IMG/VR virus record: IMGVR_UViG_3300027852_000034
Location: 33,461 to 97,460 of that record
DNA: 64,000 nt
Direction: 5' to 3' (one strand)
Source of the DNA: a virus
Lineage: Duplodnaviria; Heunggongvirae; Uroviricota; Caudoviricetes
A model generated the notes under the pieces. The model saw only the letters and a program-made list of their open reading frames with translations, was not told the origin of the DNA and ran no database searches. Position 1 is the first letter of the stretch, and each line of letters starts with the position of its first letter. The translations under genes were made by a program, and so were the position numbers. Of this stretch, positions 447-64,000 are shown one piece after another.

Positions 447-800
447 TTAAGCAATACGTTGAACTAAGAGCTTATCTCCTTCAATATCATATTCAATGCC
501 GCACTTAGAACAGACATTACCATAAGAATCTAAGACTACAAGTTCTCCGCAATCACACTGACCTATAGCTGCGGCAGTGTAATCCATACGCATCTCTTCC
601 ACATAAGGATTGGAAACTTCCAGATCACCTGAAAGACACCTTTCATAGGTAGCAAAGGCAGTATCACTCAACTGATCTACGAAAACGTTTCCCTCGATAT
701 CGCAAAGATACCTGTAATAGGAATCTGGCTGGTCAATGAGATCGAAGATCAAGAAATACTCTACTTTCGATACCTTTTGTGACCTATTTAAGATTTTCAT
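447..800 (-). CDS. hypothetical Zn-ribbon protein
   Basis: ORF track 447..845 (-); start trimmed to MKILNRSQ with AGGAGACAGCC RBS; CxC...CxxC motifs. Confidence 0.5.
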   Translation of the reverse strand: MKILNRSQKVSKVEYFLIFDLIDQPDSYYRYLCDIEGNVFVDQLSDTAFATYERCLSGDLEVSNPYVEEMRMDYTAAAIGQCDCGELVVLDSYGNVCSKCGIEYDIEGDKLLVQRIA

Positions 801-1012
801 TTGGCTGTCTCCTCTTACGGACAACTTTATATATAACACAAGCATACTACAAATCTTAAGAATAGCAAACTTAAGATCACGGGATTCCTGTCCTTATTGC
901 TATGGATCAAGCAAAAAGTATAATCGTAGAAAATGTTGCGGTTTTCTTTTAAGTTTTATATAATATAAGTATATCGTTATTATCCAATAACTTAGCTGAA
1001 GGAGTTAATGTA

Positions 1013-2511: not shown

Positions 2512-3024
2512 ATGTTTGATAGATCCCCTAGCGTTTGTGTCGGAATTCAGTTTGAACACGTTGAAGGATTGGCCAGTATTGAATGGTTAAATTTGGATGA
2601 CTACTCTGATTCCGATGAATTCAATCAAGCTTGTTTAAACCTTTACGAAAAGCTTGATGAAAAAGATGAAGATCCAGAATTTTTGTTTCAAAGCTGGGAC
2701 GGTATACCAGATAGATACATCAGTGAAGAACATATAGACGAAGAGTACTGGGATTACCAAAATTTTGTAATGATCTCTAATTTAAGTTCTGATGTATTTG
2801 AAGCTGGTGCTGACTTGGACATAGATTACTATAATGTTGAAGAACGCTATGTAGGTAAGTTTCCATCAGATTTAATGTTCGCTATGAATCATGCAGAAAG
2901 TACAGGTGCGTTGGATAATCTAGCAGAATGGCCTCATAGTTGCATTGATTGGGATCATGCCGCTACAGAACTTATGCAAAGAGGTTTTATAGACAGCAAT
3001 GATTACTACTTTACAGAGTGCTAA
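2512..3024 (+). CDS. acidic hypothetical protein
   Basis: ORF 170 aa, D/E-rich. Confidence 0.6.
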   Translation: MFDRSPSVCVGIQFEHVEGLASIEWLNLDDYSDSDEFNQACLNLYEKLDEKDEDPEFLFQSWDGIPDRYISEEHIDEEYWDYQNFVMISNLSSDVFEAGADLDIDYYNVEERYVGKFPSDLMFAMNHAESTGALDNLAEWPHSCIDWDHAATELMQRGFIDSNDYYFTEC

Positions 3025-17988: not shown

Positions 17989-18297
17989 ATGAAAATGTTG
18001 ACACAAGCCCTGATCAAGAAGATCCCGCCCCTATACACGCATGAAAAAAGCCATCCTGAAGATGTCCCTGTTGTTGTGAAATTCTTCACACCCTGGTCTA
18101 ACTGGACTTGGTACGTAACTGAAGGTGAAAAACAAGAAAATGGGGATTGGTACTTTTTCGGTTATGTAAAAGGCTTTGCAAACGAACTAGGTTATTTCCT
18201 GCTTTCTGAACTTACAGGAGTAACTGGTCCTGCTGGTCTCAAGATAGAACGAGACATTCACTTTGAGGGCAAAACTCTCGCTGATATAATGGATTAA
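17989..18297 (+). CDS. hypothetical protein
   Basis: ORF 102 aa, CAGGAGAACATAGGTATG RBS. Confidence 0.55.
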   Translation: MKMLTQALIKKIPPLYTHEKSHPEDVPVVVKFFTPWSNWTWYVTEGEKQENGDWYFFGYVKGFANELGYFLLSELTGVTGPAGLKIERDIHFEGKTLADIMD

Positions 18298-20796: not shown

Positions 20797-21132
20797 CTAC
20801 TTTTGGATAAATTTAACTGTTAAATCGGGAGGAGAGATATAAGGAAGGTTGTATGCTTTGGAAAAACTTTTATTCGCTTTCAGTCGCCAAGTACACATCG
20901 GTTGTACTGTTATTGATTCTACTATACCTGTCTGTTTATTAATCTTGGTTATTGTAATATTTGATCGTGCTATGAAAGTGTCAATGTAATTTTTAATCTG
21001 ATCGAAATACCATCCTGTGAATCCTAACTCATCTCTTAAATATGGTAAAGTAAGATGAACATAAATATCATCTATATAAGTTTGATATTTAATTGAGTCT
21101 AAAAAGCAGTCCCTCAAAGCATCCATATCCAT
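20797..21132 (-). CDS. hypothetical protein (downstream of rep, same strand)
   Basis: ORF 111 aa on - strand. Confidence 0.5.
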   Translation of the reverse strand: MDMDALRDCFLDSIKYQTYIDDIYVHLTLPYLRDELGFTGWYFDQIKNYIDTFIARSNITITKINKQTGIVESITVQPMCTWRLKANKSFSKAYNLPYISPPDLTVKFIQK

Positions 21133-21207
21133 GCCCTTCTTATTTGTTAATTTGACTACCCGAGTATAAGCAGTGTAATAAAAGGGGCCATAAAAAGCTA
21201 GTCCAAC

Positions 21208-22176
21208 TTAACGACTTTTTCTATCAAGTTCCTTAGCAGTCATGGATAATATATCCCTATAAGTAATACCTTGGTTATGTGACATAAGGATATGTAAAAG
21301 TTTATCGGGACCACCTTCATGACCTACAATTTCAGGTACCTTTTCAGATAGATAGGTTTCCACTTTATCCTTTAAATTTTTATCCTGTACAGAAGAGTGT
21401 TCTATAACACCTGAAAGGATGTCCTCTTCTTTTTTTGCATCGTAGTCAAACAAAAAAGTTATACCTATAACCTTCCTACCTGATTTCTTCAACTCCATGG
21501 AGATATTATAAATAGGTAAAGAAACAGCTTGAATCTCTTTTATAGATTTTTCTAGTACCTTAGACTTAAAATTTCTAAAATCTTTATAACTAACATTATC
21601 TTGAACATCCATCAATCTATGCAACTCTATCAATTCAAAATATCTAGATTTATGATTACTGTTTTTATATTGATATAAAAGCTGGTATAATCTTATCGCA
21701 TGTTTAGATCGAAGTGGTGCCAACATATACATCTGCCATTTGGTATATTGGGAAAGATCTTTCGCTTTCTCCCACAGATCATAATTCATACGCATATTAA
21801 ATTCTTTAGTAACAGGATCATAACCTATTCTAGTAAATACAGGATATTGATCCCATCTTCCATGTTCGTTAAGTTCCTCAAAATAAACATCCCGAAGCTT
21901 TCCAACTAATACAGAATTGCGCACAGTCAAAGCCTTAGTACTAGAAATATGGAATTGTTCTACTAACTCATGGATAGGGAAACATATCAAAGACTTTTCT
22001 ATATAAGAATCTTGTTTTTGTAATTTAGAGATATACACAGCAAAGAACTTTAAAGCTATTGGTGAATACCTGCGTAACATCATCTCATTTAGAGAATTAG
22101 GCATACAAACACAAGAAGATTTTGTACCTACCCTCAGATTATTTTTTTGCATAAAAACACCCCAAATTAAGGACAC
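21208..22176 (-). CDS. rep: Rep_3-family replication initiator (iteron-binding Rep)
   Basis: LRSKHAIRLYQLLYQYK...YKDFRNFKSKVLEKSIKEIQ...KKSGRKVIGITFLFD matches the Rep_3 signature (LRSKYSIRLYELL / kkGRkv.gieF); iterons immediately upstream of its start. Confidence 0.7.
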   Translation of the reverse strand: MSLIWGVFMQKNNLRVGTKSSCVCMPNSLNEMMLRRYSPIALKFFAVYISKLQKQDSYIEKSLICFPIHELVEQFHISSTKALTVRNSVLVGKLRDVYFEELNEHGRWDQYPVFTRIGYDPVTKEFNMRMNYDLWEKAKDLSQYTKWQMYMLAPLRSKHAIRLYQLLYQYKNSNHKSRYFELIELHRLMDVQDNVSYKDFRNFKSKVLEKSIKEIQAVSLPIYNISMELKKSGRKVIGITFLFDYDAKKEEDILSGVIEHSSVQDKNLKDKVETYLSEKVPEIVGHEGGPDKLLHILMSHNQGITYRDILSMTAKELDRKSR

Positions 22177-22329
22177 TTTTTGTATATGTTTAGGAGACTA
22201 TACACTAATTTAACTATCGTATAAACTCCTATATTAACGAAACGTATTGTAACCTTCTTTACACATTACACATAACACTTCAGTATACCTTAGTACACTA
22301 TGACAACCCTAAAATGCCCTGATCTAGAA

Positions 22330-22407
22330 CCTCCTTTACACATTACCGTAACCTCCTTTACACATTACCGTAACCTCCTTTACACATTACCGTAACCTCC
22401 TTTACAC
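22330..22407. repeat. iterons: 3.5 tandem copies of 22-bp CCTCCTTTACACATTACCGTAA (plus a degenerate copy at ~22252-22270)
   Basis: Perfect direct repeats, unit length about two helical turns, located 150 bp upstream of rep start. Confidence 0.85.
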
Positions 22408-22439
22408 GTATGGAGCTAAAACTTCTTTAAATTCAACAA

Positions 22440-22660
22440 CTTCCTAGGTCTAAAATATTAAAACTTTAAAGTTTTAAAAGAGTATTTCAGAACATACATA
22501 TATTCTTCATACAAAATCTACAGCAGATCTAAACGAAAGAATCTACTTTATTCTTTTAGTTTATAGTCTTATAAGAATACAATAGGCTTCGCCTATTTGA
22601 TCCATCATGATCTACTGCGTAGATCTATTCTGTATCAATTTTAATTTTTCTTTGAGAGTA
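22440..22660. other. AT-rich putative DNA unwinding region of an iteron origin
   Basis: ORF-free very AT-rich stretch with palindromes (AAACTTTAAAGTTTTAAAAG; GATCTACTGCGTAGATC) adjacent to iterons. Confidence 0.5.
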
Positions 22661-22678
22661 CAGGTATAACTATTGACA
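22661..22678 (+). promoter_or_regulatory. class-B promoter-like motif CAGGTATAACTATTGACA
   Basis: Same AGGTATAACTATTG core as the promoters of the Y-RNA arrays; upstream of gene 22717. Confidence 0.5.
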
Positions 22679-22716
22679 CAGAAAACTGAAATTAGAAAAC
22701 TGAGATTTGAGATTGA

Positions 22717-23181
22717 ATGCCTAAAGGAACTAAATTTTCTTTCGTTGATAAGAACGTATTACTGGCTCTAAGAAATGCCGACTTCATTACCTTCAACAAC
22801 ATAGAAAGAAAAAAATCTAAAATAATCTGTACTAAGGAAGTAGATGGTAGAAAACTGAACTACGAATTTGATGTGAACAGTGATCTTGAAATACCGAATC
22901 TGATACCTGAATTTTTGAAACTTACGAAAATCGTATATGCAAAGTACATAGCTCTATATGTACCTTATGACTGGGAAATACAATCTGTTTTTGGACTCTT
23001 GCAACTGAATGACGAATTAGAACTTATTTGGCAACCTGATGTACTCAGTGATCCTAAAAATGATTCACACTTAGATGCTCTGAAGTTAATCATTTATAGA
23101 AAGGAACAACGGTTCCATTTTAAATTAGGATTTTTTCTAAGCAACTCTAAGGATAGAATGATAAAGATAAATAATGAATAG
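22717..23181 (+). CDS. hypothetical protein
   Basis: ORF 154 aa. Confidence 0.5.
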   Translation: MPKGTKFSFVDKNVLLALRNADFITFNNIERKKSKIICTKEVDGRKLNYEFDVNSDLEIPNLIPEFLKLTKIVYAKYIALYVPYDWEIQSVFGLLQLNDELELIWQPDVLSDPKNDSHLDALKLIIYRKEQRFHFKLGFFLSNSKDRMIKINNE

Positions 23182-29221: not shown

Positions 29222-29812
29222 ATGGATTATCTTTCCATTTATTCCTTCGAGGGTCCAATCGAAGGATACGTAATCAATTTCCTACAAAAAAATTACTGGA
29301 GGGTAAAAAATTATTTTGATTATGAAGATGCGGTACAAGAAGCACGGTATACTTTCACGCTTCTTTTAAGGAGAATGGAGAGAAACAATTCATTGATTGA
29401 AAATGCAAAGCATCTTATGTCCTTATTTAAAAGTGCTTGGACACGTCATTTTCACACTCTATCTAATCGTGATACCAAACGTATAGATTTTGCAATTTCT
29501 AATTACACAACTGAAGATCATGATGATTGGATATTAGACTCAATTAATCTAGATGCAAGTTCCCATAACTTAGGATATTTAGAAGTAGTAATTGATCAAG
29601 CACCTAAAGAAGTACGACAAGTTTTAAATCTTTTACTTACAGCACCTAAAGAGATGTTAGGAATGGCTGTAGAAAGTTGGGGTAACAACAACAAAAGAAA
29701 CTCTACTATAACCAATGAATTTCTGTGTCGCATGTTAGGTTACAATCATAAAGAAATAGATTTAATAAAGAACGTACGGAACTACTTACTGACAGATCAA
29801 ACACAGGTATAA
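29222..29812 (+). CDS. hypothetical protein (possible regulatory/sigma-like, unverified)
   Basis: ORF 196 aa, AAGGGGACATTCAAAATG RBS. Confidence 0.5.
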   Translation: MDYLSIYSFEGPIEGYVINFLQKNYWRVKNYFDYEDAVQEARYTFTLLLRRMERNNSLIENAKHLMSLFKSAWTRHFHTLSNRDTKRIDFAISNYTTEDHDDWILDSINLDASSHNLGYLEVVIDQAPKEVRQVLNLLLTAPKEMLGMAVESWGNNNKRNSTITNEFLCRMLGYNHKEIDLIKNVRNYLLTDQTQV

Positions 29813-33002: not shown

Positions 33003-33671
33003 ATGACAACGGGGAATAACATGAGTAGTGATTGTAAAAAAGAACCAGAAGATGAATCTATTGCAGACTCTAAAGATAGAAAAACTCTTGCTACTGACTC
33101 TATTACAAATTTGTTAAAATTCGTAGGTGAAGATGTAACAAGAAACGGTCTTATTGAAACCCCTAAAAGAGTAGTTAAAGCCTACGAAGAATTGACCTGG
33201 GGTTTAAGGGTATCAGAAGATGAATTTTTCGACTCCATTGCGAAAGAGTTTGAACTTGCCTACGACCAAATGGTGGCAGTACGTTCTATTAGGTTTACCT
33301 CTATGTGTGAGCACCATTTGCTTCCTTTTATTGGTACTGCTACTGTCGCTTACATACCAGACGCGAAAAAGAATGGCATGGTAATAGGTATTAGCAAACT
33401 TGCTAGACTAGTAGAATATTATGCAGCTAGACCTCAAATTCAAGAACGTATGACCACTCAAATTGCAAAAGCATTAGAGACTTTAATGTCTCCGTTAGGT
33501 ACAGGTGTATGGATTGATGCTGTCCACACATGCATGTCTATCAGAGGTGTTAAAGCCGTGGGCGCCTCTACTGTAACCTCTGATTTACGTGGTGTGATAA
33601 GAGAAAATCCTGAAACTCGTAGTGAATTTTTATCCCTTGCAAGAAGTAACATGTTCCAAGGTATACAATGA
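33003..33671 (+). CDS. folE: GTP cyclohydrolase I
   Basis: [10 protein letters not shown] signature, LIETPKRV, length 222 aa. Confidence 0.8.
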
Positions 33672-41409: not shown

Positions 41410-42981
41410 ATGTATGAACAGTTAAAACCCAAAAATCATAATGTAAAAGAGCCTGTACATTTCAAAGATTTTAGAATTGCTTTAGATAGTGGAGCGCACA
41501 CTCTCTATACCCAAATCTTTGTAGGTGTAGATAACGCCAAGGGTAAGCAAATGAAAAAGCTTTCCCAAGCAGACTACTCTTATATGGAAAGCGATGGATT
41601 CAAATCTTATTTAGAGGATTACATCCAATTCTTACTTGAACATGGTGATAAATATGATTTCTATGTAACACTGGATATTATCGGTGATGCAGAAAAATCC
41701 TGGGAAGTAACCGAATACATAGAGTCCTTTGGTCTTAAACCTCTTCCTGTGTATCACTGGGGAGAGACAACCTATTGGCTAGAAAAAATGGTCGAAAAAT
41801 ATGACTACGTAGGGATAGGTGGTCTAGGTCAAGAAGTCTCGAAAGAAAAATTCATCCCGTTCGCTGATAACGCTTTCAAGGTTGTGTGTGATAAATACGG
41901 ACATCCGAAAGTAAAGACCCACGGATTTGCTGTAGCCAGTCCTGAACTAATTGCCAAGTACCCCTGGCATACGTGTGATGCCAGCACATGGACTGCGCTA
42001 TCACGTAATGGTACTGTGTACATACCCAAGCCTATTATGAAAGGAAAGGAAGTAATTGATTTTAATTACCTTACTCCTCCTATGTCACTCCCTGTAACAG
42101 TTAGACGCTCCAATCATACCAATCACATGGATCATAAATCTCCTTTGTACTCTGATCTATTAGAAAAATACTTTGGTCAATACGGCTATACTTTTGAGGA
42201 TGTCAAACGTAGATATGACGCTAGGGATGTACTGAACATTAAATTCTTTAAACAGATGGAAGCTGCTGCAAAAGAAGTCCTTGAAAAAAATAACGGATAC
42301 GGAGAAGGTGCAAACATTATTCTTGCCGGAACTCCTAGTGGTGCTTCTACTAATCTATCACGTTTCGTAGATCTCTTAGGTGAAATAAATGAACCTGAAA
42401 CCTATTGGTTCGGAAGTTATTACTACAAACGACACAACCAGAATCTAATGGATTTACAAGAGAAGCATCTTGCAGGTGAAGATGCACGATTACTACAACT
42501 GCTTCCTAGACGCAGACGAAATGTTACGGTGATTGAGCCTACAGAACTTGTACATGATGAATTCCCTTTTACTAGGAAGGTTCCTGAGCAAAGTAAAGTT
42601 GCAGTTACAGGATCACCTACTTCTAAAATAACAGACAGGGAAGTACCTACCGATAAACCGATACAACGGAGAAAGTTATCTGTAAAACCAAGATCCCTTA
42701 CAAATCATGACTCTGACACATCAGCATGGCCGGATGCTTTAGAAGAACCAAAAAAGAACAAGCACATAACTGAGGCTGCTAAGACTGTAAACACTTTGAG
42801 GGAAGCCTTAAGTATCTCAAGTTTCGGTGCTGCGCATTTAACAGATGAGCAAATTGAAATAGAGGTACAACGTAGTATGATTAAGATTATTAATTCAATT
42901 AAATATATGGTATGCAAAAATACTAAAGCTTTTGCTACTACTGAAGTATCCATCAACGTAAATGGGAAGATCTATGAATAA
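41410..42981 (+). CDS. dpdA: DpdA-like DNA-guanine transglycosylase (TGT family)
   Basis: 523 aa; N-terminal region with TGT/DpdA-like pattern (DSGAHTLYTQIF..., FYVTLDIIGD, YVGIGGLGQ); co-located with folE/queD-like/queE. Confidence 0.6.
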   Translation: MYEQLKPKNHNVKEPVHFKDFRIALDSGAHTLYTQIFVGVDNAKGKQMKKLSQADYSYMESDGFKSYLEDYIQFLLEHGDKYDFYVTLDIIGDAEKSWEVTEYIESFGLKPLPVYHWGETTYWLEKMVEKYDYVGIGGLGQEVSKEKFIPFADNAFKVVCDKYGHPKVKTHGFAVASPELIAKYPWHTCDASTWTALSRNGTVYIPKPIMKGKEVIDFNYLTPPMSLPVTVRRSNHTNHMDHKSPLYSDLLEKYFGQYGYTFEDVKRRYDARDVLNIKFFKQMEAAAKEVLEKNNGYGEGANIILAGTPSGASTNLSRFVDLLGEINEPETYWFGSYYYKRHNQNLMDLQEKHLAGEDARLLQLLPRRRRNVTVIEPTELVHDEFPFTRKVPEQSKVAVTGSPTSKITDREVPTDKPIQRRKLSVKPRSLTNHDSDTSAWPDALEEPKKNKHITEAAKTVNTLREALSISSFGAAHLTDEQIEIEVQRSMIKIINSIKYMVCKNTKAFATTEVSINVNGKIYE

Positions 42982-52562: not shown

Positions 52563-52594
52563 ATACACAGCATTAATCATCTTTGGAGATTCTC

Positions 52595-53425
52595 ATGCAA
52601 CTGACAGCAAATGATCCTATTTGGACACAACCGATACAAACAATTCCTCTTATACAGGCTTTCCCTGAATTGGGACAGGTCGAAGAGTTCAATGAAAAGC
52701 AGGTAGTTCTTACTGAAGACCATAAAAGGCTGTTCAGTGTAATTTCTGCTAAGTCTGTAGTAAAACACCATAAAGAAGCAGTTGAACTTGTTGCAAATGC
52801 TCTTGAATCAGCATACGGTTCAGAACCTAGAGTAGATGTAAAAACTTTTAAACAAGGTGCTCAAATGAAGGCTAAGTTCACTATGCCTGATGAACCTGTA
52901 ATCGACTTAGGTGGTAACGATACAAGTAGCCTTCATGTAATACTCTATAATTCTTATGACAAAGCACTACCTTTCAAAGTACGTGTAGGAGCATATCGGT
53001 ATGTATGTGATAACGGTATGGTAATCGGTGATGATATTGCACAGATACAAGGTAGAGAGTTATTAGAAAACTGGTCACCTGAAGGTGTAGCAACAAACAT
53101 TCAAAACATGATGGAACAAGCTAAAACCGTTACTGATGTATGGAAAGCTTGGCGTAGAATTGAGGTACCTTTCCATATAGCTGTAGATGCTTGTGCCCGC
53201 CGTTTTCCTAACTTCATGCTGAACAAGTTAGATGCATTAGAAGATAGTTTTCCTATGTCCATGTGGGATTTATATAACCATTTCACTGCTATGGTTACAC
53301 ATGAATCAAAGAGCGAAAGAGCCCAACACACTTTCGACAGTGTGGTTTCTACTGTTTTTTACAAGGCTAGAAGTCCGATGTACCAGCACTATGCTAAAGA
53401 AGCAGGTTTAATAGAAGCCGCTTAA
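52595..53425 (+). CDS. DUF932-like phage/plasmid protein
   Basis: ORF track 52583..53425 (ATG at 52595, GGAGAT RBS); YRYVCDNGMV resembles the DUF932 vCsNG motif. Confidence 0.45.
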   Translation: MQLTANDPIWTQPIQTIPLIQAFPELGQVEEFNEKQVVLTEDHKRLFSVISAKSVVKHHKEAVELVANALESAYGSEPRVDVKTFKQGAQMKAKFTMPDEPVIDLGGNDTSSLHVILYNSYDKALPFKVRVGAYRYVCDNGMVIGDDIAQIQGRELLENWSPEGVATNIQNMMEQAKTVTDVWKAWRRIEVPFHIAVDACARRFPNFMLNKLDALEDSFPMSMWDLYNHFTAMVTHESKSERAQHTFDSVVSTVFYKARSPMYQHYAKEAGLIEAA

Positions 53426-54496: not shown

Positions 54497-55335
54497 AAAT
54501 TTTAGTAATAATAGATTTTCTAAACACACTCATGAGGTCTCTAGCTGTTAACCAAGAACTTGAATACGGAGGAGTTCCTACAGGTGGTATCTATGGATTT
54601 TTCAATCAGTTAGTGAAATTGATTCATATCCATCAACCTACACACTACCTAATTTGTAAGGATAAAAAACCTTATCTTAGAGAAGAACTATTCCCTAATT
54701 ATAAAGGTGATAGAAAAAAGAAAAAAAGAAACGATGACTTTGATTTTGGTAATGCTTTAACAGTTAATACAGATCTTACTAACACATTATTAAAAGAACT
54801 AGGGTTACCTACGTGGGCAGTCCAAGGTCTTGAAGCTGACGACTTAATAGCCTTTGCAGTTGATATGCACCAAGATGAATTTGATAAGATTATAGTGCTT
54901 TCAAATGATACTGATCTAAATCAATTACTGATATACGATAACGTTAGACTTTATAAAAAATCTAAATTCAGTGACAGTGATGGTACATACGGTATAGAAG
55001 GATTTAACGAAGAATTTGGGGTCCCTATAGAAACATGGACTGAATACACAGCCCTTGTTGGTACCCATAATGGAGTACCAGGGTTTCGTGGAATAGGTCC
55101 AAAAACTGCCGCTAAAATATTACTTGATACAAATAAGCACGAGGCTTTCAAGGACGAGAATAAAGAAGAGTTACAAAAGAAAGTAGATTTAATTACACTA
55201 CCTTTCCCATTTTATGAGAGAAAAGTTAGAATGCCTAAAGTAGTTCCCATGGATGCTAACTACAGGAACGTTATTTATTTACTGGAAAACTTAGGTATAA
55301 CTTTTACTAATAAAATGAGAGAGGCGATTGAATGA
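54493..55335 (+). CDS. 5'-3' exonuclease / flap endonuclease (RNase H-like)
   Basis: PIN-like N-terminus, LEADDLIAF, H3TH GIGPKTAAKIL. Confidence 0.8.
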   Translation: MKILVIIDFLNTLMRSLAVNQELEYGGVPTGGIYGFFNQLVKLIHIHQPTHYLICKDKKPYLREELFPNYKGDRKKKKRNDDFDFGNALTVNTDLTNTLLKELGLPTWAVQGLEADDLIAFAVDMHQDEFDKIIVLSNDTDLNQLLIYDNVRLYKKSKFSDSDGTYGIEGFNEEFGVPIETWTEYTALVGTHNGVPGFRGIGPKTAAKILLDTNKHEAFKDENKEELQKKVDLITLPFPFYERKVRMPKVVPMDANYRNVIYLLENLGITFTNKMREAIE

Positions 55336-56921
55336 GTACAGCCGATAATAATATTCATGGCGCCTTAGCTGAAAATATTCTAACGTTACTCTGCTTTGAT
55401 GATGATGCAGCAGGCATCATAGTAAACACTGTAGATGTAGGATTATTTGAATCTGATATCTATAAGGATATTGCTCAACAAGTAGTTGCCTATTATACCA
55501 AGTTCAAAGAAACTCCGAAAGAACACCTTGCTGACCTTTTAGAAGAAAAACTAGAGGATAAAAAGGATAAACGGAAAGCTGATTTATATCAAAAAATCTT
55601 ATTAAATCTATATGAGTTCCGTGACTCTATTAATCAAAAATATGTACTGGATCAAGTACGTACCTTCGTTAGACAACAAAAATTAAAATCAGCTATTGTT
55701 GATGCTACTACTTATGTACGTGATGGTGATTTAGACAAAGCGGAAACCGTATTAACCAGTAGTTTAAATAGTCAGATAGAATTATTTGAACCTGGTATTT
55801 TCTTTGCTGATTCCGAACAAAGTCTACGCTTCTTCGATGCTATCATACCTACGTATTCTACAGGTATACCTCCCTTAGATAAAATGGGGTTTGGACCTGC
55901 TCAAGGTGAGTTGCTTGTTATATTGGCACCTGCTAACAGAGGTAAAACCTGGATGATGATACATTTAGGTAAGTTCTGTGCTATGCAGCGTTTAAAGGTA
56001 CTTCACATATCCTTGGAAATGTCAGAATTAAAAATGTCACAACGGTATATGCAGACCTTTTTCTCATTCAGTAAACGTGCAGGTGAAAACCCTTACCGAA
56101 GTATTAAACGTGATGAAATGGGGCGTTTTATAGATACACAAGGTGAACTTATAGAGCGTCCATCTTTAGATAATTTAGATGCAGAAGTTTCACTTGGTAA
56201 AAAAATAAAAAGACTTGAAAATAGATTAAAATTATGGGTAAAACGTTTCCCTACAGGCGCTTTAACAATGCAAGGATTGGAAGCGTATTTAGATGCCTTG
56301 GATAGATTCGAACACTTCCATCCTGATGTCATTATTGTTGACTATGCTGATCTGATGAAACTAGATTCAGCAAATCTTAGAGTTGATACAGGCAACATAT
56401 ATAAGAATTTACGTAGAATTGCTGTAGAAAGAAATTGTGCCGTGGTTACAGCATCACAAAGTAATAGACTAGCTGAGGATGCAAAAGTTATCACTCTGAA
56501 ACATTTAGCTGAAGATTATTCAAAAGCTGCTACCGCTGATAACATAATTGCCTATTGTCAGACTAGTCAGGAGCAACGCTACGGGCTTGCAAGATTATTC
56601 ATAGCTAAAGCCCGTGATGAAGAAAGAGAACAGTCAGTGGTCATTACACAGAACTATAGAATAGGTCAATTCTGTATGGATGCTGCAAAATTGGATAATA
56701 GGTATTGGGATACTTTAGAAATGCTACCTACGGATGGTAGTAATACAGGCACTAGTCAATCTAGTTCACGCACTAGAATGATTACAAATCAAACATCTGA
56801 AAAAGAGGAAGAACAAGAAGAAAAACCTGAGAAGGAAAAAACTACACGTAGAAAGGTTACAAAGTTTGACCGTTCTAAAATACGTAGAAAGAACAAGAAA
56901 AAAGAAGAACCTGAAGAATGA
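55332..56921 (+). CDS. DnaB-like replicative helicase
   Basis: DnaB N-terminal domain; Walker A ILAPANRGKTWMM; 529 aa. Confidence 0.8.
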   Translation: MSTADNNIHGALAENILTLLCFDDDAAGIIVNTVDVGLFESDIYKDIAQQVVAYYTKFKETPKEHLADLLEEKLEDKKDKRKADLYQKILLNLYEFRDSINQKYVLDQVRTFVRQQKLKSAIVDATTYVRDGDLDKAETVLTSSLNSQIELFEPGIFFADSEQSLRFFDAIIPTYSTGIPPLDKMGFGPAQGELLVILAPANRGKTWMMIHLGKFCAMQRLKVLHISLEMSELKMSQRYMQTFFSFSKRAGENPYRSIKRDEMGRFIDTQGELIERPSLDNLDAEVSLGKKIKRLENRLKLWVKRFPTGALTMQGLEAYLDALDRFEHFHPDVIIVDYADLMKLDSANLRVDTGNIYKNLRRIAVERNCAVVTASQSNRLAEDAKVITLKHLAEDYSKAATADNIIAYCQTSQEQRYGLARLFIAKARDEEREQSVVITQNYRIGQFCMDAAKLDNRYWDTLEMLPTDGSNTGTSQSSSRTRMITNQTSEKEEEQEEKPEKEKTTRRKVTKFDRSKIRRKNKKKEEPEE

Positions 56922-61424: not shown

Positions 61425-61480
61425 CACAGGTATAACTATTGCAAGTTTAGAAATATTATATATAATATAAGTTATATAGT
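61425..61480 (+). promoter_or_regulatory. bipartite class-B promoter of Y-RNA array 2
   Basis: CACAGGTATAACTATTGCAAGT...ATATTATATATAATATAA, near-duplicate of 58511..58556. Confidence 0.6.
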
Positions 61481-61678: not shown

Positions 61679-61805
61679 ACGGACCGAATTGGATTGGGTT
61701 ATCCATGCAAGGAGGATGTCAGGGGTTCGATTCCCTTCTTATCTGAAAAGATAAGTAGCTCAGTTGGCAGAGCGCCTAAACCCCAATCCTAAATAACTTG
61801 TCCGT
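61679..61805 (+). ncRNA. Y RNA-like unit 5 with permuted-order tRNA-like insert
   Basis: Stem ACGGAC/GTCCGT; CCGAA-TTGGATTG-GGTTATC; insert order T-arm (AGGGGTTCGATTCCCTT) - CTTATCT-GAAA-AGATAAG acceptor-like hairpin - TA - D-arm GCTCAGTTGGCAGAGC; 3' AACTTG. Confidence 0.7.
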
Positions 61806-61840
61806 ATATCATTTAAGAGGAGTTTAAAATTAAGGGCCGA

Positions 61841-62357: not shown

Positions 62358-64000
62358 ATGGCTGCACCATATGGCGACATTACTTCTAAAAAGAAGACCG
62401 CACAATCTCAAGCTATCCCAGGTAGAGAAGCAGAGATGGAAAAAAACAACGCAGGTGGATACACCTTTTTATCTAATGATTGGGATCAATTACTGCGATT
62501 CCTTATCATCGGTTCCATAGGTGGGACATACTATGTGACTCAGAATAAACTGACTTTGGATAACACAAGCCATATCAAAGGACTTGTCAAAGAAGATGGA
62601 ATTCGGGTTGTCAATGAAGTTGTCCGTGTATCTGATGAAGGTTTAGCCCTGCGTAATGACCCTGCACTGTTTGTACTGGCAATATGTGCTGCTGATGGAA
62701 ATATAGATGTACGCCAGCATGCTTTAGAGAACTTACCTAAAGTAGCTAGAACTGCTACCCATCTGTTTACTTTTATCTCATATGTAAAAGAAATGAGAGG
62801 TTGGGGACGTGCGTTAAAGAACGCTGTAGCAAACTGGTATCAAAAACGTAAGGCTCCTAGCTTGGCATATCAGATTGTCAAGTATCGTAACAGAGAAGGT
62901 TTCACTCACCGTGACGTACTTCGGTTAACAAAGCCTAAGCCAAAGGATGATGAGCATGACTTCCTGTACGGCTATGCTGCTAACAAAGTAGTCTTTGATG
63001 ATGGTAAGTTTATCAAATCTGAAAAAGATGCTAAGGATACTGTAATTCAATTACCTGCAGGATTAGATATCATCAAAGGTGTCGAATTAATAAAGCAGGA
63101 AGGTTTGTCTCGTACTCAAGTAGTTAATCTGATTTCAGATTATAATCTGACACATGAGATGATTCCTAACGAGTACAAAGGTGAGCCTGTTGTTTGGGAA
63201 GCACTGTTAGAGCGTATGCCACTTACTGCTATGATTCGTAACTTAGGTAAAATGACATCTATAGGTCTTTTAAAGCCTATGTCTAATGCATCTAAGCTGG
63301 TTGTAAACAAGTTGCGTGACCAGGAATACTTGCAGAAAAGCAGAGTACATCCAATTGCTGTACTTATTGCATTAAAAGTATATGCAAACGGTGCTGGTAT
63401 TAAAGGTAGCTTGGCTTGGAATCCAGTCCAAACTATTAATGATGCTCTTGAAGGTGGATTTTATAAAGCTTTTAAGAATGTAGAGCCTACTGGTAAAAAT
63501 ACATTACTTGCATTGGATGTATCAGGTTCTATGGGTTGGAATGATGTGATGGGCATTAACTTTATGAAATGCTCTGAACTGACAGCAGCTATGGCTTTGG
63601 TAACCGCAAATGTGGAGCCTAACTATATGATCTTTGGGTTCTCTGATCGGTTTAAAGCGTTGGATATTTCTGCTTCTGACTCTTTGATAGACGCTACTAG
63701 AAAAGTAGCCAATCGTACATTCGGACGTACAGATTGTGCATTACCTATGGAGTACGCTAAGCAGCAAAAATTGGATGTAGATTCTTTCTTTATTTATACA
63801 GACAATGAAACTTGGGCTGGTCGTATTCAACCATCACAAGCTTTGATTGCATACCGCAAAAAGTCTGGTAATGATGCTAAGCTGGCAGTAATTGCAGCAG
63901 CAGCAACCCGCTTTACAATTGCAGATCCAAAAGATCCTGGTATGTTAGATGTCTGCGGATTCAGTTCAGATACACCCAAAGTGTTAAGCGGGTTGCTGCT
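62358..64000 (+). CDS. rsr: Ro60/Rsr ortholog: TROVE domain + C-terminal vWA (MIDAS DVSGSM); 3'-partial at window end
   Basis: GAAAGGAGAATCAAAAATG RBS; N-terminus QLLRFLIIGSIGGTYYVTQNKLTLDN...LRNDPALFVLAICAAD aligns with human Ro60 [26 protein letters not shown]...KQEPMLFALAIGCAAD; HRDVLRLTKPKP vs HKDLLRLSHLKP; MIDAS LALDVSGSM. Confidence 0.85.
   Translation, partial: MAAPYGDITSKKKTAQSQAIPGREAEMEKNNAGGYTFLSNDWDQLLRFLIIGSIGGTYYVTQNKLTLDNTSHIKGLVKEDGIRVVNEVVRVSDEGLALRNDPALFVLAICAADGNIDVRQHALENLPKVARTATHLFTFISYVKEMRGWGRALKNAVANWYQKRKAPSLAYQIVKYRNREGFTHRDVLRLTKPKPKDDEHDFLYGYAANKVVFDDGKFIKSEKDAKDTVIQLPAGLDIIKGVELIKQEGLSRTQVVNLISDYNLTHEMIPNEYKGEPVVWEALLERMPLTAMIRNLGKMTSIGLLKPMSNASKLVVNKLRDQEYLQKSRVHPIAVLIALKVYANGAGIKGSLAWNPVQTINDALEGGFYKAFKNVEPTGKNTLLALDVSGSMGWNDVMGINFMKCSELTAAMALVTANVEPNYMIFGFSDRFKALDISASDSLIDATRKVANRTFGRTDCALPMEYAKQQKLDVDSFFIYTDNETWAGRIQPSQALIAYRKKSGNDAKLAVIAAAATRFTIADPKDPGMLDVCGFSSDTPKVLSGLL

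What the first reader, a model, noticed from the sequence alone, without database searches (positions are those of the whole stretch)
20797..22700. Plasmid-type theta origin (Rep_3 initiator + 22-bp iterons + AT-rich DUE) embedded in the phage genome on the opposite strand
The only minus-strand block in the window encodes a Rep_3-family initiator whose start is preceded by 3.5 perfect 22-bp direct repeats (CCTCCTTTACACATTACCGTAA) and an AT-rich palindromic region. This is the canonical arrangement of iteron plasmids.

Together with the two parB genes (24371, 30930), it suggests either the phage's own origin of replication or a phage-plasmid lifestyle or plasmid-derived module.
Basis: partly seen in the sequence, partly recalled or inferred. 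Interest (0 to 1): 0.6.

Follow-up and report, generated by a model that had tools for sequence, protein, structure and literature searches.

The report
Plasmid-type replication origin in large phage
A roughly 158-kb uncultured phage carries a real, conserved plasmid-style replication start site, made of a Rep_3 initiator gene, four tandem binding repeats and an easily melted AT-rich patch; this is a well-known kind of module that is uncommon in large phages that carry their own DNA-copying machinery.

Summary
On the minus strand, rep (22152..21208, 314 aa) passes both Pfam Rep_3 domain models. Its predicted fold matches monomeric RepE bound to iteron DNA.

- **Repeats:** 175 bp upstream of rep lie 3.6 perfect 22-bp repeats (22328-22407). 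A fifth, degenerate copy sits next to the rep promoter.
- **AT-rich patch:** on the far side of the repeats lies the most AT-rich stretch of the window.

Corrections:
- The block holds two genes. The in-frame TAA is the true rep stop, followed by a conserved 109-aa ORF.
- It is not the only minus-strand gene; 447-845 is another.
- The genome is a circular 158-kb assembly.

The only relative found is a sister phage whose Rep is 47% identical. It has the same layout but a different 21-bp repeat, and its promoter-proximal copy has changed in step. The AT-rich flank and the Rep C-terminal domain stay conserved. This co-variation argues for a working initiator/iteron pair.

Lytic origin versus plasmid-state maintenance is unresolved. 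No ParA, integrase or repressor was found in the 84 kb examined, and no relatives were found in bacterial genomes.

Verdict: a deep-branching new member of a known kind, of moderate interest.

The parts
21208..22152 (-). rep: Rep_3-family initiator of 314 aa. WH1 spans residues 15-159 and WH2 spans 175-235. A clade-specific helical C-terminal domain covers about residues 240-314. The stop is the TAA at 21210-21208.
   Evidence: - Pfam Rep3_N 58.7 bits and Rep3_C 52.9 bits.
- AlphaFold2 model with pLDDT 88.6.
- Foldseek against RepE54-iteron complexes gives target TM-score 0.88-0.90 and rmsd 2.2-2.5 A.
- The gene is called as 314 aa on public contigs.
- The C-terminus is conserved in the 317-aa homolog.
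20797..21126 (-). orf109: a small gene of unknown function, apparently co-transcribed downstream of rep and conserved as a pair with rep.
   Evidence: - The same rep + 109-aa ORF pair is in L001 at 60% identity.
- No Pfam or PHROG hit.
- Only two clusters exist among 5.8 billion proteins.
- AlphaFold2 pLDDT is 74.7 and there is no PDB fold match.
- No similarity to the Acinetobacter ORF downstream of RepM.
22197..22225 (-). Promoter-like site for rep: TTTATA, 17-nt spacer, TATAGT.
   Evidence: Consensus scan only, 9 of 12 positions matched. This is an inferred feature.
22251..22272 (+). Isolated degenerate iteron (AACCTTCTTTACACATTACACA) just upstream of the rep promoter. It is a candidate autoregulatory site.
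   Evidence: It has 4 of 22 mismatches to the iteron, and 0 of 5000 shuffles did as well. The equivalent position in L001 carries a copy of that phage's own, different iteron (5 of 21 mismatches, P = 0.0014).
22328..22407 (+). Iteron array: three perfect 22-bp units (AACCTCCTTTACACATTACCGT) plus a 14-nt fourth core copy.
   Evidence: - Tandem Repeats Finder: period 22, 3.6 copies, 100% matches.
- Unique in the window.
- L001 has 4.0 perfect 21-bp units of a different sequence at the same place.
- Two Logan contigs break inside the array, and the ENA assembly shows 1.6 copies.
22408..22520 (.). AT-rich candidate DNA-unwinding element. It includes a conserved post-iteron box and the palindrome TTAAAACTTTAAAGTTTTAA (22458-22477).
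   Evidence: - GC is 24%, and the lowest 60-mer is in the bottom 0.06% of the window.
- The palindrome is reported.
- The stretch is 77-80% identical to L001, whereas the rep-proximal spacer is 37-42% identical.
- The 16-bp palindrome core differs from L001 by a symmetric pair of substitutions (read from alignment A2).
22581..22625 (.). Two conserved 7-3-7 palindromes or hairpins: AATAGGCTTCGCCTATT and GATCTACTGCGTAGATC. Their role is unknown; they could be terminators or insulators, or sites for a dimeric protein.
   Evidence: - Terminator-like hits on opposite strands.
- Unique in the window.
- The first keeps its symmetry in L001 through two paired substitutions, and the second has an invariant stem.
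22659..22678 (+). Conserved motif TACAGGTATAACTATTGACA upstream of the first rightward gene (22717). It is a candidate phage promoter element.
   Evidence: It is identical in L001 except at one position. The core ACAGGTATAA recurs exactly at 29803 and 61426, both ahead of plus-strand genes, and 19 near-matches were found against 7 expected.

Best explanation
The locus is a working iteron-type replicon that belongs to the phage and most likely serves as the phage genome's origin of theta-type replication.

Proposed mechanism:
1. Rep is made from its own leftward promoter.
2. Rep monomers bind the four tandem iteron cores through WH1 and WH2. The cores are 22 bp apart, so they lie on one face of the helix.
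3. The Rep-iteron complex opens the adjacent AT-rich element.
4. A replicative helicase is brought in. The likely candidate is the phage's own DnaB-like protein (55332-56921), possibly recruited through the conserved clade-specific Rep C-terminal domain or orf109.
5. The phage replisome then takes over: PolA, clamp, clamp loader, SSB.
6. Rep bound at the isolated fifth iteron next to its promoter limits its own synthesis.

Shown here: family membership, fold, layout, conservation, and Rep/iteron co-variation.

Inferred: DNA binding, melting, helicase recruitment, autoregulation, and the stage of the life cycle at which the origin fires.
For: - **Domains and fold:** Rep_3 WH1 and WH2 score far above the Pfam cut-offs. 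The model matches the iteron-bound monomeric RepE54 (target TM-score 0.88-0.90) better than dimeric RepE (0.45).
- **Layout:** the order is AT-rich element, then 4 iterons, then spacer with isolated iteron, then promoter, then rep. This is the order of classical iteron plasmids. Acinetobacter Rep_3 plasmids likewise have four 22-bp iterons upstream of repA and a small ORF downstream (PMC13141974).
- **Comparative test:** the sister phage L001 has the same layout, but with a 21-bp iteron of different sequence. Its promoter-proximal copy has changed in step.
- **Pattern of divergence:** nucleotide similarity between the two phages is lost exactly over iterons + rep promoter + the first ~92 Rep codons (21877-22406). 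It resumes at the end of the array. The Rep DNA-binding domains are about 41% identical and the C-terminal domain is 68% identical. The AT-rich flank is 78% identical.
- **Repeat homogeneity:** the repeats are perfectly homogenised within each lineage.
- **Phage context:** the genome encodes a complete replisome that needs an origin-recognition step.
- **Mechanistic precedent:** Rep proteins of this fold are shown to hold iteron dsDNA and DUE ssDNA together (PMC10602881; PDB 8aan/8ac8 are among the fold hits).
Against: - No experiment or read-coverage data were available.
- Cumulative GC skew shows only the local dip expected from the minus-strand genes. There is no polarity switch at the locus.
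- The strand-switch point of the genome lies elsewhere, at about 850-1010.
- No DnaA box was found with 1 mismatch or fewer.
- Only two lineages exist for comparison.
- By precedent (my own knowledge), characterised Rep_3-like iteron replicons in phages such as P1 oriR/RepA serve plasmid-prophage maintenance, not lytic replication. KS14, a weak hit, is also reported to be kept as a plasmid (my own knowledge).
- One assembly shows only 1.6 iteron copies.
Confidence: 0.5

Rival explanations
1. Phage-plasmid maintenance replicon. The Rep/iteron module is functional, but it serves low-copy replication of the circular genome in a plasmid-prophage or carrier state, as P1 oriR/RepA does. Lytic replication would start elsewhere. 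The ParB-like proteins and the conserved palindromes would then act in segregation or silencing.
For: - The genome assembles as a circle (exact 141-nt terminal overlap).
- The rep cassette is antisense to all neighbouring genes and has its own promoter and operator-like iteron. It could therefore be expressed while the lytic genes are silent.
- Two full-length ParB proteins lie within 9 kb.
- The only cultured-phage matches to Rep are in small temperate phages, including Burkholderia KS14, which is reported to be kept as a plasmid (my own knowledge).
- Precedent of P1 (my own knowledge).
Against: - No ParA-type Walker A protein in the window plus 20 kb of flanks.
- No integrase, CI-type repressor or toxin-antitoxin domain among 83 further ORFs or the larger ORFs scanned.
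- No relative of Rep in one genome for each of 185,579 bacterial species.
- The gene content is of the virulent type: full replisome, tRNAs, ArdA, a 7-deazaguanine module, UvsX.
- There is no second iteron cluster for copy control in the window.
- ParB without ParA is common in virulent phages.
- About 74 kb of the genome was not seen.
Confidence: 0.3
2. Non-replicative use. Rep acts mainly as a sequence-specific regulator or exclusion factor. It could repress or insulate the rightward operon that starts at 22717, or interfere with related co-infecting phages or plasmids. The repeats would then be operator sites.
For: - The iterons lie in a 564-bp divergent control region that also holds the conserved promoter-like motif for the rightward genes.
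- Rep_3 dimers are known repressors of their own genes (PDB 2z9o appears in the fold hits).
- The rapid divergence of the specificity module between sister phages resembles immunity or incompatibility swapping.
Against: - Four same-face tandem sites directly abutting the most AT-rich stretch of the window form an origin layout, not an operator layout.
- The iterons are about 250 bp from the rightward promoter-like motif.
- The model resembles the monomeric initiator form.
Confidence: 0.1
3. A hitch-hiking or decaying plasmid-derived cassette with no present role in the phage.
For: - The two 1-kb windows spanning 21001-23000 have the lowest GC of the window, 31-32%.
- The cassette is inverted relative to everything around it.
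- Rep is among the most divergent of 15 syntenic proteins.
Against: - Both genes are intact in two lineages that differ by about 25% in DNA.
- The repeats are perfect in each lineage and co-vary with Rep.
- The C-terminal domain and orf109 are conserved at 68% and 60%.
- No close plasmid donor exists.
Confidence: 0.1

Closest known systems
Iteron plasmids with Rep_3 initiators: mini-F RepE/ori2, R6K pi/gamma ori, pPS10 RepA
   Same: - Tandem WH1-WH2 fold (target TM-score 0.88-0.90 to RepE54).
- Pfam Rep3_N and Rep3_C.
- About 22-bp direct repeats upstream of rep, with the AT-rich element on the side away from rep.
- An extra iteron-like site at the rep promoter.
   Different: - Sequence identity is only about 16-18%.
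- There is an extra conserved helical C-terminal domain of about 75 aa. Almost none of the 150 best hits listed, out of 1882 relatives, extend into it.
- No DnaA box was found.
- The replicon sits inside a 158-kb phage that encodes its own helicase and polymerase.
Acinetobacter Rep_3/OrfX (RepM) plasmids
   Same: - Best NCBIfam hit (repM_Acin).
- Four perfect 22-bp iterons upstream of rep plus a small ORF downstream (PMC13141974).
- An example plasmid, L014, shows 5.2 x 22-bp repeats and a downstream ORF.
   Different: - The score of 63 bits is far below the RepM cut-off of 250.
- orf109 has no detectable similarity to the plasmid ORF.
- Identity to plasmid Reps is about 31% or less.
Phage-plasmid replicons (P1 oriR/RepA, Burkholderia KS14-type)
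   Same: A phage genome carrying an initiator plus iterons, with ParB-family genes nearby. KS14-type phages are among the few cultured-phage hits.
   Different: - The hits cover only a third of Rep at 31-34% identity.
- No ParA and no lysogeny genes were found in 84 kb.
- The genome is much larger and of the virulent type.
Lambda O protein / ori-lambda
   Same: Functional analogy: a phage-encoded initiator binds four repeats next to an AT-rich region and hands over to a helicase through its C-terminal domain (established knowledge).
   Different: In lambda the repeats lie inside the O gene. Here they are intergenic, and no Phage_rep_O hit was seen.

Membership tests
Rep_3 initiator family (Pfam PF01051 + PF21205) | N-terminal WH1 domain above the gathering score | tested here: met
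   Rep3_N 58.7 bits against a cut-off of 22.4, residues 15-159.
Rep_3 initiator family (Pfam PF01051 + PF21205) | C-terminal WH2 domain above the gathering score | tested here: met
   Rep3_C 52.9 bits against a cut-off of 21.1, residues 175-235.
Rep_3 initiator family (Pfam PF01051 + PF21205) | Tandem winged-helix fold as in RepE and pi | tested here: met
   The model has pLDDT 88.6. Foldseek to 1rep_C gives target TM-score 0.90 and rmsd 2.2 A, and 2nra (pi) gives E = 6.5e-9.
Iteron-type theta origin | Three or more tandem direct repeats of about 17-22 bp next to the rep gene | tested here: met
   3.6 x 22 bp at 100% identity, 175 bp from the rep ATG. The sister phage has 4.0 x 21 bp.
Iteron-type theta origin | AT-rich unwinding element flanking the iterons | tested here: met
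   22408-22520 has 24% GC. Its lowest 60-mer is in the bottom 0.06% of the window. This test is compositional only.
Iteron-type theta origin | The initiator binds its iterons specifically | not testable with these tools
   Indirect support only: the iteron sequence, including the isolated promoter-proximal copy, co-varies with the Rep DNA-binding domains between two lineages.
Iteron-type theta origin | Host DnaA box(es) in the origin | tested here: not met
   No TTATCCACA with 1 mismatch or fewer in 22100-22760. The host is unknown and the phage has its own helicase, so this feature may not be required.
Iteron-type theta origin | The fragment supports autonomous replication, or there is a marker-frequency peak | not testable with these tools
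   No reads and no experiments. GC skew gives no signal beyond gene orientation.
RepM of Acinetobacter (NCBIfam NF038290) | Score at or above the curated cut-off | tested here: not met
   63.3 bits against 250.
RepE equivalog (NCBIfam NF010305) | Score at or above the curated cut-off | tested here: not met
   26.9 bits against 342.
Phage-plasmid | Plasmid-type replication initiator in a phage genome | tested here: met
   Rep_3 is present. Phage context: replisome PHROGs, tRNAs and endolysin-like genes. Virion genes were not seen in the 84 kb examined.
Phage-plasmid | Complete partition system (ParA-type ATPase + ParB + centromere) | tested here: inconclusive
   Two ParB proteins, but no ParA-type Walker A and no ParA Pfam hit in the window plus flanks. 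About 74 kb of the genome was unseen.
Phage-plasmid | Found as an extrachromosomal replicon in bacterial genomes or isolates | tested here: not met
   No relative of Rep in 185,579 species-representative genomes. All occurrences are metagenomic contigs.
Lambda O-type phage origin | Iterons inside the initiator gene; Phage_rep_O domain | tested here: not met
   The repeats are intergenic. Only Rep3_N and Rep3_C were hit.

The most novel reading that the evidence does not exclude
A 158-kb phage of virulent type, with its own PolA/DnaB/clamp replisome, uses a plasmid-family Rep_3 initiator as its origin-recognition protein. Rep would be coupled to the phage machinery through a new C-terminal domain, and perhaps through orf109. 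The DNA-recognition half of the module (iterons + WH domains) is swapped or diversified quickly between sister phages, while the melting region and the coupling domain stay fixed. This would be an origin-specificity cassette that could prevent cross-initiation or interference during co-infection.
Probability: 0.35. Interest if true: 0.55.

Novelty: new member of a known kind. Interest (0 to 1): 0.4.

Why it matters
Origins of replication are unknown for most large uncultured phages. Here the origin candidate can be named to the base, and its initiator is identified.

The pair of sister phages offers a natural specificity-swap experiment: two Reps and two iterons, with a shared unwinding region and a shared C-terminal domain.

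If the module serves plasmid-state maintenance instead, it would mark a very large phage-plasmid with modified DNA. If it is the lytic origin, it would show a plasmid initiator family adopted by a phage that has its own replisome.

Either way it is an extension of known biology, not a new principle.

Tried and rejected
- **One interrupted 451-aa Rep (pseudogene, read-through or recoded TAA): rejected.** Public gene calls and the homolog both end at the same ...SR. In L001 the downstream ORF is in a different frame.
- **More relatives for comparison: none found.**
  - IMG/VR with Rep and with ParB.
  - JGI metagenome contigs with Rep and with a conserved 19-mer.
  - A palindrome pattern in IMG/VR.
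  - GTDB genomes.
  - GenBank phages by DNA.
  - A second Rep_3 query against phages.
- **Rfam on the locus:** no match at E <= 1. The conserved right half of the spacer is not unusually structured as RNA (z = -1.67).
- **orf109:** no family, no fold match, and no similarity to the Acinetobacter ORF downstream of RepM.
- **DnaA boxes:** none found.
- **GC skew as an origin signal:** uninformative.
- **Extra iteron clusters elsewhere in the window:** none.
- **Conserved palindromes as repeated parS-like sites:** no further copies above chance.
- **Source samples:** a literature search for the four sample accessions found nothing. The host remains unknown.
Full report
**What is in the sequence**

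The interval 20797-22716 holds two minus-strand genes and a 564-bp spacer. All neighbouring genes run rightward.

The larger gene (ATG at 22152, TAA at 21210-21208, 314 aa) scores 58.7 bits on Pfam Rep3_N and 52.9 bits on Rep3_C. Both are well above the curated cut-offs of 22.4 and 21.1. It also hits PHROG 4402, 'replication initiation protein'. In NCBIfam it scores far below the cut-offs for Acinetobacter RepM and for RepE.

An AlphaFold2 model built on 72 sequences has mean pLDDT 88.6. It superposes on monomeric RepE54 bound to iteron DNA with target-normalised TM-score 0.88-0.90 and rmsd 2.2-2.5 A. The fit to R6K pi is weaker, and the fit to dimeric RepE is poor. Residues 240-314 form an extra helical domain that RepE lacks.

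**The stop codon**

Translation shows an in-frame TAA followed by 136 more codons. This is the true end of Rep, for three reasons:
- Public gene calls give 314 aa.
- The only homolog is 317 aa and ends in the same ...SR.
- In that homolog's contig the next ORF, again 109 aa, lies 80 nt downstream in a different frame.

The cassette is therefore rep plus a conserved small gene, orf109 (21126..20797). orf109 is 60% identical between the two phages. It has no family, fold or literature match.

**Repeats and AT-rich region**

Tandem Repeats Finder reports 22328-22407, period 22, 3.6 copies, 100% identity. That is three full units and a 14-nt fourth core. The unit is unique in the window.

A fifth copy with 4 mismatches lies at 22251-22272. 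It sits 26 bp upstream of a promoter-like site for rep.

On the side away from rep, 22408-22520 has 24% GC. This stretch contains the most AT-rich 60-mer class of the whole window and a perfect 20-bp palindrome.

The order is therefore: AT-rich element, iterons, isolated iteron, promoter, rep. This is the order in classical iteron plasmids. It also closely parallels Acinetobacter Rep_3/OrfX plasmids, which have four 22-bp iterons upstream of repA and a small ORF downstream (PMC13141974; example).

**Comparative evidence**

Searches of 5.8 billion proteins found only one relative, at 47% identity. An exhaustive HMMER search of 1.84 billion representatives found nothing closer: after the clade itself, the best hit scores 70 bits. 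Almost none of the 150 best hits listed extend past profile position ~250.

The relative lies on a syntenic contig of a sister phage (L001). Fifteen flanking proteins are 48-88% identical, and Rep is among the two most divergent.

L001 has 4.0 perfect copies of a 21-bp repeat at the equivalent place. The sequence is different: AACCTTTTTGTAACGTTTTGC against AACCTCCTTTACACATTACCGT. Its promoter-proximal isolated copy matches its own repeat, not the window's.

DNA similarity between the two phages stops at the first ~92 codons of rep and resumes exactly at the outer end of the iteron array (21877-22406). Identity by segment:

| Segment | Identity to L001 |
|---|---|
| rep-proximal spacer | 37-42% |
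| Iterons | 56% |
| AT-rich and downstream part of spacer | 78% |
| Rep winged-helix domains | about 41% |
| Rep C-terminal domain | 68% |

Three palindromes in the conserved part keep their symmetry. Two do so through paired substitutions, and the third (22609-22625) has an invariant stem (alignment A2).

So there is a fast-changing recognition half (iterons + DNA-binding domains) joined to a conserved melting region and a conserved C-terminal domain. This is what a functioning initiator/origin pair would show, and it is hard to reconcile with a decaying remnant.

**The genome around it**

The window is part of a large phage-like genome.
- One ENA contig of 158,116 bp begins and ends inside rep with an exact 141-nt overlap (k = 141). 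The assembly is therefore circular, about 157,975 bp.
- The window encodes PolA, a sliding clamp, a clamp loader, an SSB, a UvsX-like recombinase, a DnaB-like helicase, two SF2 helicases, a ligase and a 5'-3' exonuclease. It also encodes FolE and a DpdA-like transglycosylase, ArdA, five or six tRNAs and two ParB proteins.
- Endolysin-like genes lie just beyond the right end.
- No cultured phage is close. PolA is at most 36% identical to any cultured-phage PolA.

**Lytic origin or plasmid maintenance?**

This cannot be settled here.

For a plasmid state:
- The circular map.
- The antisense, self-contained cassette.
- The ParB genes.
- The precedent of P1 (my own knowledge).
- The only cultured-phage hits are small temperate phages, including KS14, which is reported to be kept as a plasmid (my own knowledge).

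Against a plasmid state:
- No ParA-type ATPase, integrase, CI-type repressor or toxin-antitoxin domain in the window and 20 kb of flanks.
- No relatives in 185,579 bacterial species genomes.
- A gene set of the virulent type.
- A survey of 373 persistent virulent phages found ParB-only hits but no plasmid Rep hits. ParB alone therefore means little, whereas Rep is unusual.

Rep_3-fold proteins are rare among viral proteins. Only five BFVD entries match at E <= 0.001, all from uncultured phages. Only six of 50,697 phage records match by tblastn.

GC skew gives no origin signal beyond gene orientation.

I favour the reading that this is the phage's own origin, at confidence 0.5. The maintenance reading gets 0.3.

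**Verdict**

The feature is real and correctly recognised. It is a deep-branching new member of the Rep_3/iteron replicon kind, carried by a 158-kb phage. It has two local peculiarities: an extra conserved C-terminal domain, and a companion gene, orf109. The specificity swap between the two sister phages could be tested directly. Interest is moderate.

Noticed in passing
window 62358-64000 (runs off the end) and 61680-61807: A TROVE/Ro60-type gene with a vWA domain lies here; precomputed Pfam on the same ENA contig gives TROVE and vWA_Ro60. It is preceded by about 970 nt of non-coding DNA. That DNA contains a full-length but sub-threshold match to the Y RNA-like family YrlA (40 bits against a gathering score of 69, E = 1.5e-6). 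This is a likely phage Ro60-Y RNA module next to a tRNA cluster.
   Followed up: partly
ENA contig k141_2819039 (L005/L009); window 21415-21555: The 158,116-bp contig starts and ends inside rep with an exact 141-nt overlap. The genome is therefore a closed circle of about 157,975 bp.
   Followed up: yes
window 22328-22407 versus L009 914-950: The ENA assembly has 1.6 iteron copies where the window and a JGI contig have 3.6. This 44-bp gap is the only difference over 3.7 kb. Two Logan contigs end inside the array (at 22357 and 22378). The difference could be real copy-number variation or assembly collapse.
   Followed up: partly
window 447-845 (minus strand) and ~850-1010: This is a real minus-strand gene at the edge of a long leftward gene block. 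The divergent strand switch of the genome lies at about 850-1010, where GC skew also changes sign. It is an alternative place to look for an origin.
   Followed up: partly
window 22660, 29803, 61426: The exact motif ACAGGTATAA occurs ahead of rightward genes, in extended form TACAGGTATAACTATTGACA at 22659 and with 3 mismatches at 61425. L001 has two copies in its origin spacer. It is a possible phage-specific promoter element.
   Followed up: partly
window 33003-33671 and 41410-42981: GTP cyclohydrolase I and a DpdA-like (queuine tRNA-ribosyltransferase family) protein are encoded here. They suggest 7-deazaguanine modification of the phage DNA.
   Followed up: no
window 2512-3024; 52583-53425; 17989-18297: ArdA antirestriction, DUF932 and DUF2958 proteins are encoded here. 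These families are often seen in the leading regions of conjugative plasmids, yet here they sit in a phage early region.
   Followed up: no
window 22581-22597, 22609-22625, 22460-22475: Three palindromes in the conserved half of the spacer keep their symmetry between the two phages. Two do so through paired substitutions, and the 22609-22625 stem is invariant. Their binding partner or role is unknown. There are no other copies in the window.
   Followed up: partly
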